From: Escherichia coli
GTDB taxonomy: Bacteria > Pseudomonadota > Gammaproteobacteria > Enterobacterales > Enterobacteriaceae
Strand: one strand, 5' to 3'
Assembly (NCBI RefSeq): GCF_016026235.1
Contig: NZ_CP065613.1
DNA: 64,000 bases
Each line of letters opens with the position of its first letter. The first letter of the stretch is position 1. Made by a program: the position numbers. Positions 47,601-49,870 of this stretch are shown in pieces.

Positions 47601-49870
47601 GAAGTTAAACAACGCGAAGCAGAAGCCAACATGCTGCGTGCAGAAGCTGCCGGACAGGCTGATGCGATTCGCACAAAAGCCCAGGCCGAAGCCGATGCAA
47701 TTCGTTTACGCGGTGAAGCTCTGCGCCAGAACCCCGGTGTTATGGAGCTGGAAGCCATCAATAAATGGAACGGCACACTGCCGCAGTACATGACCAGCGG
47801 TGCCAACACACCATTTATTCAGGTTAAGTAATACATATGCCCGGTATTACACGCCGGGCTGTCTGGAGATAAAAATGAATACTGTAACCATCAACAACAA
47901 ACAGTTTCCGGTAATCGAATATCGCGGTCAGCGCGTGGTGACGCTGGCGATGATTGATGAAGTGCACCAACGCCCGGACGGAACAGCGGGACGCAATTTC
48001 CGCGAAAACAAGTCTCGTCTTATTGAAGGGGAAGACTACTTCGAATTAGGTTCCGACGAAATTCGTCGACACCTCCCTGACGGTACTTTCTCAAAATTTG
48101 CAGCAGCAGGAATTGTACTGGTCGAATCCGGTTATTTGATGTTGGTGAAATCCTTCACCGACGATCTGGCCTGGCAGGTTCAGCGCGAACTGGTTAACAG
48201 CTATTTCCGAACTCACGCGCCGCTGACGGAAATGGAGATGATCGCTGCAATGGCCGCCGATGCCGTTCGCCAGCAAAAGCGCCTGAGTCATGTTGAAAAG
48301 AAGATCGAAACGGTCACCAAAGCTGTGGAGAACATCAAACGCGGCACAATGCGCGCCGGATATGTCGGTTACCGCCAGGTGGTAGCCAAAAGTGGAATGA
48401 GTGACGCCAAGTGTCGGAATCTGGTGAACGCATATCAAATTCCTACAGACACCCACGAATTCATGACTCCGGACGGTCTGTTGTCTCGCAGGGCTATCGT
48501 CGAGCTTGAGCCATTTATGGCGGCGTTCCACCAAATGATGTCAGAGGCTGAACCACGCGGCACACGCTGGTATCACCCGAAGATGGGGCTTTTCCAGGTG
48601 ATCGGATGGGAGGATAAAGCATGATCATCCAGTCAAAACTTATTCGCGCCGCTCTGGTGTGCGCTGCTAAAAACGACGTTCGTTATTACCTGAACGGTCT
48701 TCACATCACGCCGAAACATATTGAGGCAACCAATGGTTCCGTGGCACTGCGCATGGCTCACGGCATCCGGACGAAGAAAAACATCATTGTCCAGTTCGAA
48801 GGGGGCGTCCCGGCCAAAGCCGAAACGACAGAGCTGATTTTTAGTAAAGAGCCGATCGCTGTTCATCGCGACCAGTTTCAGCGACGACTGTCCATTACCG
48901 GCATTAAACTGGTGGACGGTTGTTTTCCGGATTTGGATCGCATCATTCCGAAAAAGTTTGACCGCTGTACTCACCCGGTGCTCCAGGCGGGTTACCTGAG
49001 TTATCCAGAGAAGATGTTTGGTCGTGAGCGTAAATTTATTCCCGTCCAGTTACGTCCCTCCGGTGACGGGCAAGCGGTCAGAATTCAGTTTGATTCCATC
49101 ATCAACTCAATGTATGGCAATCCTGAATTTGTTGTGATGCCTTGTCGTGATCATGGCGATTTCAACGTGGCTCAGGAGCATCCGGAATGAAAATCGAATA
49201 CCAGGACGCCGCAGGAGGTGAATCAATGAGCTGGCCTGATGCAATCGTAACTCTGGGGATGGTATTCGCAGTAGCGTTTGTTGTGTACTCGATTTGTCGA
49301 TGGGGATAACCACATGTTCGCTTTGATTCAACGCGGGCAGATATACACAGACAGAGCCGGATACCCAGTAGAAATTACTCGCAGTACTGAGCACTCAGTG
49401 TTCTTTCGGAGGATGGACGGACGTACCGGGCGAGTACGCATCGGTGAATTCAGTAGCCTGTTCGAGCATATTGACCACCTGGAATATCACAAGATTCTGG
49501 CTGAAACAGAACAAGAAAAGCACCTGAAGAAATTACGCGCAATGCAAAGGAAGTAAAAAATGAATAAAGCGTTTGAGCTATGGGTCCACCAGCGTTACGG
49601 CAACCGCTACGACCTGACGCGAGATGTTGACGGTTTCTACTGTCGTGAAATTGTGAAACGAATGTTTGAGGTCTGGTGCCACTGCCGTGGATGAAAGTTT
49701 TATGAGGTTGGCATGCAGACAATCATCTATCAGATAACCCCCAGCAAATGGTGTACAGAGAGAGTCCTCATTGCATCAACAGGGCTAAAGCCTGGCACCA
49801 TCGAGCGGGCCAGAAGAAAGTCATGGATGCAGGGAAAAGAATACCGTCATTACGCTGTATGAAGTGGTCA

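What the first reader, a model, noticed from the sequence alone, without database searches (positions are those of the whole stretch)
48621..49190. Half-size DNA polymerase III beta-clamp homolog in the prophage early-left operon
The 189-aa product carries motifs that align with E. coli DnaN domain II and the start of domain III (DVRYYLNG; ATNGSVAL vs ATDGHRLA; KLVDGCFPDLDRIIPK vs KLVDGRFPDYRRVLPK; FVVMP vs YVVMP) but is about half the length of a clamp protomer. A truncated clamp paralog could poison or co-opt the host clamp, or load phage replication factors. The gene sits where lambda carries exo/bet/gam, which are absent here.
Basis: partly seen in the sequence, partly recalled or inferred. 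Interest (0 to 1): 0.65.

Follow-up and report, generated by a model that had tools for sequence, protein, structure and literature searches.

The report
Phage half-size sliding-clamp protein
A prophage gene encodes a cut-down copy of the bacterial DNA sliding clamp that keeps the pocket where polymerases and repair proteins dock but has lost the parts that close the ring; it belongs to a large, already annotated but unstudied phage family.

Summary
The ORF is real: 48621..49190 (+), 189 aa, overlapping both neighbouring genes by 4 nt. Its relationship to DnaN is far beyond chance. A family profile hits DnaN at E 1e-17, hhalign gives 98.7%, the AF2 model has pLDDT 92, and all top Foldseek PDB hits are beta clamps.

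It is not a fragment. At least 394 clusters (50% identity) of 165-210 aa proteins share both termini.

The anatomy is DnaN domain II without its second inner helix, the II-III linker, and the C-terminal half of domain III. Domain I and the first half of domain III, which carry both sides of the ring-closing interface, are absent.

Seven of the ten most conserved family positions are residues of the clamp-binding-motif (CBM) pocket (P about 1e-6).

My best reading is a non-canonical, probably dimeric "mini-clamp" that binds clamp-binding motifs and competes with host beta for its clients. Function is inferred, not shown.

RefSeq already calls the identical protein "beta clamp domain-containing protein", and phage records call relatives "DNA pol III beta subunit". 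PHROGs labels the family RusA-like, which my results do not support. I found no functional study.

Interest is moderate: a new variant of a known kind.

The parts
48621..49190 (+). Half-clamp gene (189 aa plus stop), a member of PHROG 3007. RefSeq WP_000586688.1, 'beta clamp domain-containing protein', is identical at the DNA level in 4 listed E. coli genomes.
48621..48914 (+). Residues 1-98: DnaN domain II-like domain, equivalent to DnaN about 132-237. It has eight strands and one inner helix (residues 5-14). The second inner helix of DnaN domain II (197-208) is replaced by a loop with a conserved Pro64. It carries pocket residues R21/Y22/Y23/L24 (DnaN R152-L155) and T37/G39/S40/V41/A42 (DnaN T172-L177).
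   Evidence: AF2 secondary structure; alignments; conservation
48906..48953 (+). Residues 96-111, KLVDGCFPDLDRIIPK: the DnaN II-III linker (235-250), with pocket residues P103 (P242), R107 (R246) and I108 (V247).
48972..49148 (+). Residues 118-176: an orphan half-domain (helix 123-133 and strands 142-146, 153-157, 169-172), equivalent to DnaN 316-365, the second half of domain III. It carries Q122 (N320), Y125 (Y323) and V171-R176 (V360-R365).
49149..49187 (+). Residues 177-189: a low-confidence C-terminal tail (DHGDFNVAQEHPE) that DnaN and the lytic-phage members lack.
   Evidence: pLDDT 56 for the last block; alignment
47875..48624 (+). ORF6N anti-repressor-like DNA-binding protein gene. Its TGA stop overlaps the half-clamp ATG (ATGA). 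It is the conserved upstream partner: present in 71 of 79 related proviral loci, with the same 4-nt overlap in 62.
49187..49309 (+). A 40-aa ORF whose ATG overlaps the half-clamp stop (ATGA). It shares its N-terminus (MKIEYQD) with the 74-aa phrog_1001 protein that follows the half-clamp in most relatives, so it is a variant or remnant of that gene.

Best explanation
What it is. The gene encodes a DnaN-derived 'mini-clamp' of one and a half clamp domains. It consists of domain II, the II-III linker and the C-terminal half of domain III. These are the segments that together build the hydrophobic pocket where clamp-binding motifs (CBMs, QLxLF-type) of Pol III alpha/epsilon, the delta subunit, Hda, Pol II/IV/V and MutS/MutL dock on beta.

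What it has lost. Domain I and the first half of domain III are gone, and with them both faces of the head-to-tail ring-closing interface. It therefore cannot form a canonical beta2 ring.

How I think it works. It is made early from the leftward operon after induction, co-translated with an ORF6N DNA-binding protein. It most likely forms a homodimer through its orphan half-domain and uses the retained pocket to bind CBM-bearing proteins in competition with host beta2. That would either sequester those proteins or re-target them to phage DNA through its DNA-binding neighbour.

Shown: the homology, the domain anatomy, the loss of the interface segments, the selective conservation of pocket residues, the operon position and the gene coupling.

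Inferred: that the pocket binds CBMs, the dimer, and the physiological consequence.
For: - Homology to DnaN: profile E 1.2e-17; hhalign 98.7%; AF2 pLDDT 91.9 and Foldseek hits all DnaN at probability 1.00, with TMq up to 0.62 when both parts align together.
- Anatomy: domain II plus linker align to DnaN 136-252. The C-terminal profile hits DnaN 316-366 at 24.4 bits and 250-311 at 2.9 bits.
- Lost interface: I78/F106 (domain I) and I272/L273 (first half of domain III) are the conserved dimer-interface residues (review PMC11139829). They lie in the missing segments.
- Pocket conservation: among 138 non-redundant members, 7 of the 10 most conserved positions are pocket residues (R152, L155, T172, G174, P242, M362, P363), out of 17 mapped pocket positions in 189 residues; hypergeometric P 1.3e-6. 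H175 is kept in 85%, Y323 in 81% and R365 in 74% (residue list).
- These residues are not needed for the fold: the other DnaN half-domains share the fold but do not match the profile.
- Dimer: a fused two-copy AF2 model gave pTM 0.78, close to the maximum possible with 64 disordered residues, and extra strands at 120-122 and 141-147.
- Stable architecture: 394 clusters, nearly all 165-210 aa; BFVD phage proteins of 180-210 aa share the fold at TM 0.7-0.82.
- Coupling to a DNA-binding gene: 71 of 79 loci, 62 with the ATGA overlap; a ParB-like gene lies shortly upstream, in the same short operon, in two lytic phages.
- Host dependence: this prophage encodes an O-like initiator and a DnaC-like loader, and none of the ten early-region ORFs I scanned matched a polymerase family (the rest of the prophage was not scanned), so it most likely depends on the host CBM network.
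- Precedent: MuC shows that phage interference with the CBM pocket has strong effects on RIDA (Hda/clamp-dependent inactivation of DnaA) and on late transcription (PMC12867686).
Against: - No binding or phenotype data exist, and I found no publication on the family.
- The pocket residues are also the most conserved part of DnaN. Part of their prominence may come from how homologues were collected.
- This E. coli allele departs from the family at four pocket positions: H175->S40, R176->V41, N320->Q122 and M364->C175. It also has a 13-aa tail next to the pocket. Some members (L008, L010) have degenerate RYYL motifs.
- The dimer rests on a linker hack with a shallow alignment. I could not inspect its coordinates, and the fold search on it was uninformative.
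- A pure decoy would also starve a phage that needs host Pol III.
- No phage-encoded partner with a significant CBM was found: 3 terminal motifs against 1.3 expected, p 0.13.
Confidence: 0.45

Rival explanations
1. It is a genuine DNA-encircling sliding clamp with a new subunit arithmetic. Four protomers of one and a half domains (twelve beta-alpha-beta-beta-beta motifs) would close a six-domain ring. That ring would tether host Pol III, or a phage polymerase in lytic relatives, to phage DNA.
For: - Many phage annotators call it 'DNA polymerase III beta subunit' or 'DNA clamp protein'.
- The pocket used by polymerases is retained.
- A confident self-association is predicted.
- Small two-domain clamps exist (T4 gp45, from general knowledge), and E. 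coli beta* (domains II+III) was reported to act as a clamp (from memory, JBC 1996).
- Clamp motifs are related by local pseudo-dyads, so homotypic closure is geometrically conceivable (inference).
Against: - Both canonical interface segments are missing.
- One of the three motifs has lost its DNA-facing helix.
- No clamp loader is encoded nearby in any context seen.
- The polymerase of Dhillonvirus 'rolling' has no CBM-like motif.
- A ring with two equivalent faces has no precedent.
- I had no multimer prediction beyond the dimer.
Confidence: 0.2
2. It is a poison subunit. The domain II-like N-terminal edge, or the orphan half-domain, pairs with the open interface of a host beta monomer. This caps the monomer, prevents ring closure and shuts down host replication.
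For: - All clamp domain edges are structurally similar.
- The protein starts about where beta* starts (DnaN Met135); beta* was reported to self-assemble through a domain II-domain III contact (from memory).
- Staphylococcal phage proteins that inhibit DnaN are known; PDB 7evp, a Gp168-beta-clamp complex, appears.
Against: - Conservation is concentrated in the pocket, not on the domain edges.
- beta2 is a very stable dimer.
- This prophage, and T1-like relatives such as DS8 in which I saw no polymerase gene (about 76 bases of the DS8 record were not viewed), need a working host clamp.
- I obtained no heteromer prediction.
Confidence: 0.1
3. It is a regulatory cofactor of the adjacent DNA-binding protein (ORF6N/Ant-like, pRha-like or ParB-like). 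It would act in transcription or lysis-lysogeny control rather than replication, by analogy with clamp-dependent late transcription in T4 and Mu.
For: - Tight and conserved translational coupling with an anti-repressor-like gene.
- In several lytic siphophages it forms a small opposite-strand island, in two of them with a ParB-like 'transcriptional regulator', inside the structural module.
- MuC and T4 show that clamps can serve transcription.
- A KilA-N regulator in this prophage ends in a CBM-like QLQLTL.
Against: - The partner type is not conserved across the family.
- The CBM-like motifs are not more frequent than chance.
- The partner's conserved W-x-HP-x-x-G-x-F motif is not a CBM consensus.
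- This reading overlaps with the best explanation, because it would still use the pocket.
Confidence: 0.12
4. It is a decaying relic of a captured dnaN fragment and has no function.
For: This allele has four substitutions at pocket positions. The prophage carries an IS element and looks partly degraded.
Against: - The family is huge, constant in length and constrained at specific residues.
- The gene is intact in all 59 E. coli genomes that carry it.
- It is also present in strictly lytic phages with compact genomes.
Confidence: 0.03

Closest known systems
Bacterial beta sliding clamp DnaN (TIGR00663; Pfam PF00712/PF02767/PF02768)
   Same: Clear homology to domain II, the II-III linker and the second half of domain III. 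The same fold is predicted. Most of the residues that form the clamp-binding-motif pocket are retained.
   Different: 189 aa against 366 aa. It has no domain I and no first half of domain III, so it lacks I78/F106 and I272/L273, the interface residues. The second inner helix of domain II is missing. It scores 21 bits against a TIGR00663 cut-off of 137.65. It is phage-encoded in an early operon.
PHROG 3007 and the phage proteins annotated 'DNA polymerase III beta subunit', 'beta clamp domain protein' or 'DNA clamp protein' (Dhillonvirus, Deseoctovirus DS8, Gorganvirus, Vibrio, Klebsiella and Salmonella phages)
   Same: Same family (E 6e-65 to the PHROG), same length, same one-and-a-half-domain anatomy and same predicted fold (BFVD TM 0.7-0.82).
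   Different: The window protein belongs to an enterobacterial prophage clade that is about 30% identical to the lytic members. It has a C-terminal tail instead of ending at ...VVMPMRL, and it has substitutions at four pocket positions. The PHROG label 'RusA-like Holliday junction resolvase' is not supported by any result here.
E. coli beta* (UV-inducible 26-kDa product of an internal start in dnaN; Skaliter, Paz-Elizur and Livneh, J Biol Chem 1996; cited from memory, the paper could not be retrieved)
   Same: An N-terminally truncated clamp lacking domain I. It begins at about the same point: DnaN Met135 aligns within a few residues of the phage Met1.
   Different: beta* keeps a complete domain III and was reported to assemble into a functional ring. 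The phage protein also lacks half of domain III, including the interface helix.
Phage factors that act on the host clamp pocket from the ligand side (Mu MuC with two CBMs; staphylococcal phage Gp168/ORF240 DnaN inhibitors; Caulobacter toxin SocB)
   Same: They show that the CBM-pocket network is a target of phages and toxins, with strong effects on replication control.
   Different: Those proteins carry motifs that bind the host pocket. This protein carries a copy of the pocket itself. There is no sequence or fold relationship.

Membership tests
DnaN beta sliding clamp (TIGR00663 equivalog) | Whole-protein score at or above the curated cut-off (137.65 bits) | tested here: not met
   21.2 bits, E 1.2e-4, covering only model positions 136-254
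DnaN beta sliding clamp | Three clamp domains (I, II, III) in one chain of about 366 aa | tested here: not met
   189 aa. Alignments cover DnaN 136-252 and 316-366 only. The AF2 model shows one domain plus a half-domain.
DnaN beta sliding clamp | Head-to-tail dimer interface (I78, F106 in domain I; I272, L273 in domain III) | tested here: not met
   Both segments that carry these residues are absent from the protein
DnaN beta sliding clamp | Homology of domain II and the clamp fold | tested here: met
   Profile E 1.2e-17; hhalign 98.7%; Foldseek probability 1.00 for all 50 top hits
DnaN beta sliding clamp | Clamp-binding-motif pocket residues (subsites I and II) | tested here: inconclusive
   The family keeps R152, L155, T172, G174, H175, P242, Y323, M362, P363 and R365 at 74-99%. 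This allele has S, V, Q and C at the H175, R176, N320 and M364 positions. No binding was tested.
DnaN beta sliding clamp | Encircles DNA, is loaded by a clamp loader and confers processivity | not testable with these tools
   Needs biochemistry or multimer modelling. Only a fused-dimer AF2 run was possible.
PHROG 3007 | Full-length match to the family profile | tested here: met
   E 5.9e-65, residues 1-179 on profile positions 3-188 of 190
RusA Holliday junction resolvase (the label of PHROG 3007) | RusA fold or Pfam PF05866 | tested here: not met
   The Pfam scan gave only a weak PF02767 hit. All structural neighbours are clamps. A true RusA gene lies elsewhere in a related locus, L010.
Known anti-phage defence proteins (PADLOC-DB) | Match to any defence-system model | tested here: not met
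   No hit for the gene or for four neighbours at E <= 0.01

The most novel reading that the evidence does not exclude
The family forms a previously unseen clamp architecture: a homotetramer in which four one-and-a-half-domain protomers complete each other's half-domains. Together they would close a six-domain, D2-symmetric ring with polymerase-docking pockets on both faces. Phages would use it as a loader-independent or host-loaded processivity and recruitment ring.
Probability: 0.1. Interest if true: 0.8.

Novelty: new variant of a known kind. Interest (0 to 1): 0.5.

Why it matters
The beta clamp pocket is the hub through which at least a dozen replication, repair and regulatory proteins take turns on DNA, and it is an antibiotic target. 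If a large phage family carries a free-standing copy of that pocket, phages have a general way to capture or divert the clamp's clients. That would be the mirror image of MuC, SocB and the staphylococcal phage inhibitors, which bind the host pocket.

A minimal, soluble pocket module would also be a natural reagent for studying CBM specificity and for inhibitor screening.

If it instead assembles into a ring, it would define a new subunit arithmetic for sliding clamps.

On the practical side, the PHROG label 'RusA-like resolvase', which is propagated into many phage annotations, looks wrong.

Tried and rejected
- Fold search on the fused-dimer model. I wanted to see whether two protomers rebuild a three-domain DnaN-like arc. 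The result was uninformative (TM about 0.3), because a sequence-order-dependent aligner cannot follow a two-fold dimer.
- Canonical CBMs in phage proteins. The polymerase of Dhillonvirus 'rolling' has none. Its helicase-primase (QLNLY) and its PD-(D/E)XK nuclease (QLMLY) have internal matches of unknown meaning. In the window, 3 terminal CBM-like motifs against 1.3 expected (p 0.13) is not significant.
- The 'KMGLF' near the C-terminus of the upstream ORF6N protein as a delta-like CBM. A W-x-HP-x-x-G-x-F core is conserved in two of the three partner C-terminal types, but it reads PEFGGF in one type and is absent in the third. It is not a CBM consensus and remains only a lead.
- Defence-system membership: no PADLOC hit.
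- RusA identity, suggested by the PHROG label: rejected.
- Fragment of a frameshifted longer gene: rejected.
- Assignment of the C-terminal part to the first half of domain III, as the long HMM and hhalign alignments suggested: rejected in favour of the second half.
- Literature. Eight full-text searches found nothing on this family. The beta* papers could not be retrieved.
- dN/dS between two E. coli alleles: only 10 differing codons (6 synonymous, 4 non-synonymous), too few to interpret.
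Full report
**Observation**

The window has an ATG-to-TGA ORF at 48621..49190 on the + strand, encoding 189 aa. Its ATG overlaps the TGA of the upstream gene (…gcATGAtc…). Its own TGA overlaps the ATG of a 40-aa ORF (…ggaATGAaa…). It is therefore an internal, translationally coupled member of an operon.

They correspond to E. coli DnaN 150-157, 171-178, 235-250 and 359-363. I checked them against a DnaN sequence that I verified to be identical to PDB 1mmi.

**Is it more than chance?**

With the single sequence the evidence is marginal:
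- phmmer against PDB gives E about 1e-3, with residues 5-117 aligned to DnaN 136-256.
- TIGR00663 gives E 1.2e-4 at 21 bits, against a cut-off of 137.65.
- Pfam PF02767 gives only i-E 0.18.

With a 31-sequence family alignment (A1) it becomes decisive:
- hmmsearch against PDB finds DnaN chains at E 1.2e-17.
- hhalign against E. coli DnaN gives 98.7% probability over DnaN 136-288.
- An AlphaFold2 model built on A1 is confident (pLDDT 91.9, pTM 0.87).
- All 50 best Foldseek PDB hits to that model are beta clamps at probability 1.00.

The relationship to DnaN is established.

**Not a fragment**

The upstream gene is a complete ORF6N anti-repressor-like protein (phrog_1726, E 5e-67). An exhaustive search of 1.84 billion cluster representatives found 394 clusters at E <= 1e-3. 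Nearly all are 165-210 aa and match from residue 1-5 to about residue 176. BFVD holds many phage proteins of 180-210 aa with the same predicted fold, at TM 0.7-0.82. The half size is therefore a stable architecture.

**Anatomy**

Residues 1-98 form a clamp domain equivalent to DnaN domain II. It has eight strands and the first inner helix (residues 5-14). The second inner helix of DnaN domain II (197-208) is replaced by a loop with a conserved proline.

Residues 96-111 are the II-III linker, KLVDGCFPDLDRIIPK.

Residues 118-176 form a helix plus three strands, which is half a clamp domain. The long alignments placed this on the first half of domain III. A profile of only this region scores 24.4 bits on DnaN 316-366 and 2.9 bits on DnaN 250-311. 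Lytic-phage members read EIGFNAGYL…VVMPMRL where DnaN reads EIGFNVSYV…VVMPMRL.

The protein is therefore DnaN minus domain I, minus about residues 253-311, and minus one helix. According to a 2024 review (PMC11139829), the conserved dimer-interface residues are I78 and F106 in domain I and I272 and L273 in domain III. All four lie in the missing segments, so a canonical head-to-tail ring is excluded.

**What is conserved**

I aligned 193 sequences (the query plus 192 family proteins), kept 138 that are less than 60% identical to each other, and ranked positions by conservation. I mapped them to DnaN using the unambiguous motif blocks. I compared them with the pocket residue list from the review:
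- subsite I: R152, L155, T172, G174, H175, R176, L177, P242, R246, V247, V360, M362
- subsite II: H175, N320, Y323, V344, M362, P363, M364, R365

Seven of the ten most conserved positions are pocket residues: R152 99%, G174 99%, P242 97%, M362 96%, L155 95%, T172 91% and P363 90%. This is out of 17 mapped pocket positions in 189 residues, for a hypergeometric P of 1.3e-6. H175 (85%), Y323 (81%) and R365 (74%) follow.

The retained segments are the ones that build the clamp-binding-motif pocket. The pocket is the most constrained feature of the family. Other clamp half-domains share the fold without these residues, so the constraint is functional rather than structural.

Two caveats apply. These residues are also the most conserved part of DnaN and helped to find the homologues. 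And this E. coli allele has S40, V41, Q122 and C175 at the H175, R176, N320 and M364 positions, plus a 13-aa tail.

**Oligomeric state**

An orphan half-domain should have an exposed surface. I ran one further prediction on a two-copy fusion with a 40-residue Gly/Ser linker and a matched alignment (A2). It gave pTM 0.78 for 418 residues, of which 64 are disordered. That is close to the ceiling and implies a confidently fixed arrangement of the two bodies. New strands appear at residues 120-122 and 141-147, in the half-domain.

This suggests a homodimer through the half-domain. It is a hack, however, and I could not see the coordinates. My follow-up fold search could not test the geometry.

**Context in the window**

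On the + strand the order is:
- CI-like repressor (43523..44218)
- CII-like HTH protein
- six small unknown ORFs, one of them ParE-like
- an SPFH lipoprotein (47001..47831)
- the ORF6N protein
- the half-clamp
- the 40-aa ORF
- a DUF4222 protein
- a truncated excisionase-like ORF
- an IS3-family element
- integrase (51253..52539)

On the - strand are Rha/Ant-like regulators, an O-like initiator (39273..40187) and a DnaC-like helicase loader (38384..39271).

None of the ten early-region ORFs I scanned matched a DNA polymerase family, so the phage probably replicates with host Pol III. The late part of the prophage was not scanned.

The gene occurs in 59 of 5426 complete E. coli genomes, always full length. 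In a related genome the prophage sits next to a DUF72-domain gene, yecN and cmoA.

**Context elsewhere**

In 80 IMG/VR proviral loci of the same clade (at least 61% identity):
- the gene lies a median of 2.7 kb from the end of the fetched locus, which in most loci is also the provirus contig end;
- an ORF6N-type gene is immediately upstream in 71 of 79 loci, with the 4-nt overlap in 62;
- a 74-aa phrog_1001 gene follows in 57, and the 40-aa variant seen in the window follows in 12.

More distant temperate members sit after a pRha-like gene before xis/int, or in the rightward operon just after cro/CII.

In lytic siphophages (Dhillonvirus 'rolling', ASO78B, Deseoctovirus DS8, a Proteus Gorganvirus) the gene forms a small island of opposite orientation inside the structural module. 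In two of these a ParB-like gene lies shortly upstream in the same island.

'Rolling' encodes its own polymerase, which has no CBM-like motif. I saw no polymerase gene in the annotated parts of the T1-like DS8 record that I viewed, which cover all but about 76 bases. The family is therefore not tied to one replication strategy.

**Mechanism**

The best-supported reading is a non-canonical mini-clamp whose conserved function is to bind clamp-binding motifs. It would compete with host beta2 for its clients. Whether it sequesters them or tethers them to phage DNA through the co-translated DNA-binding neighbour is open.

The Mu work shows that disturbing the pocket economy perturbs Hda-dependent control of initiation, and that clamps can serve phage transcription (PMC12867686).

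The rivals are:
- a true ring with new subunit arithmetic (four protomers of one and a half domains);
- a poison cap on host beta monomers;
- a regulatory cofactor of the neighbouring DNA-binding protein;
- a relic with no function.

None is excluded. The relic reading is very unlikely, given the size of the family and its constraint.

**Comparison with the known**

The protein fails every membership criterion of DnaN except homology of domain II and, for the family, the pocket. It is a clear member of PHROG 3007 (E 6e-65). The label of that PHROG, 'RusA-like Holliday junction resolvase', is contradicted.

RefSeq names the identical protein 'beta clamp domain-containing protein'. Many phage records say 'DNA polymerase III beta subunit'. 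The homology is therefore already recorded in databases.

The closest cellular analogue is E. coli beta*, the UV-induced internal-start product that begins at about Met135. The phage protein begins at almost the same point. Beta* keeps all of domain III. This comparison is from memory, because the papers were not retrievable.

No PADLOC defence model matches. Eight literature searches found no study of the family.

**Verdict**

The protein is a new architectural variant of a known kind. It is catalogued but uncharacterised. The hypothesis that it is a free-standing CBM pocket is specific and testable. Interest is moderate (0.5).

Noticed in passing
window 49713..51072: An IS3-family element (orfB 49868..50707 and orfA 50734..51072, both on the - strand) sits between an excisionase-like ORF and the integrase gene (51253..52539). 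The excisionase-like ORF is only 49 aa, against 78 aa for the excisionase of a related prophage. It appears truncated by the insertion, so the prophage may be unable to excise.
   Followed up: partly
window 49187..49309 and about 49708: The 40-aa ORF after the half-clamp shares only its first 7 residues (MKIEYQD) with the 74-aa phrog_1001 protein found at this place in most relatives. Separately, similarity to the RMDEC332 prophage ends at about window 49708, so the xis/int module is a different mosaic piece.
   Followed up: partly
PHROG 3007 (family of window 48621..49190): The PHROG functional label 'RusA-like Holliday junction resolvase' is propagated into many phage genome annotations (for example Bas79, Bas81, SeSz-2 and Skarpretter). 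It conflicts with all sequence and structure evidence here, which points to a clamp domain.
   Followed up: yes
window 32667..33188 (-): A KilA-N-type regulator (phrog_129) ends in …EQLQLTLDIAC. This matches the hexameric clamp-binding-motif consensus Q-phi-x-L-x-[FL] near the C-terminus, as in Pol IV and Hda. Across the window such terminal matches are not more frequent than chance (3 against 1.3 expected, p 0.13).
   Followed up: partly
window 47875..48624 and 41931..42704 (-); loci L008 and L015-L094: The proteins encoded just upstream of half-clamp genes share a C-terminal domain (phrog_6610) with a conserved R-W-x-H-P-[KE]-[MF]-G-[LG]-F core 10-20 residues from the end. The window prophage has a second protein with this domain on the other strand. 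Its role is unknown.
   Followed up: partly
L002, L004, L005 and L006 (lytic siphophages): In four lytic phages the half-clamp gene lies in a short operon of opposite orientation embedded in the head/tail gene module. In two of them a ParB-like nuclease-domain gene lies shortly upstream in the same operon. Promoters and bidirectional terminators are annotated around it in ASO78B.
   Followed up: no
window 46148..46366 and 47001..47831: The same leftward operon carries a ParE-family toxin-like ORF and an SPFH-domain lipoprotein gene (phrog_200). Neither matched a PADLOC defence model in the set I tested (only the SPFH gene was included).
   Followed up: no
window 48738..48740 (codon 40): The two E. 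coli alleles that I translated (this window and strain VR50) have Ser where 85% of the family, including close Salmonella, Klebsiella and Kluyvera relatives, have the His equivalent to DnaN His175. That His bridges the two pocket subsites.
   Followed up: partly
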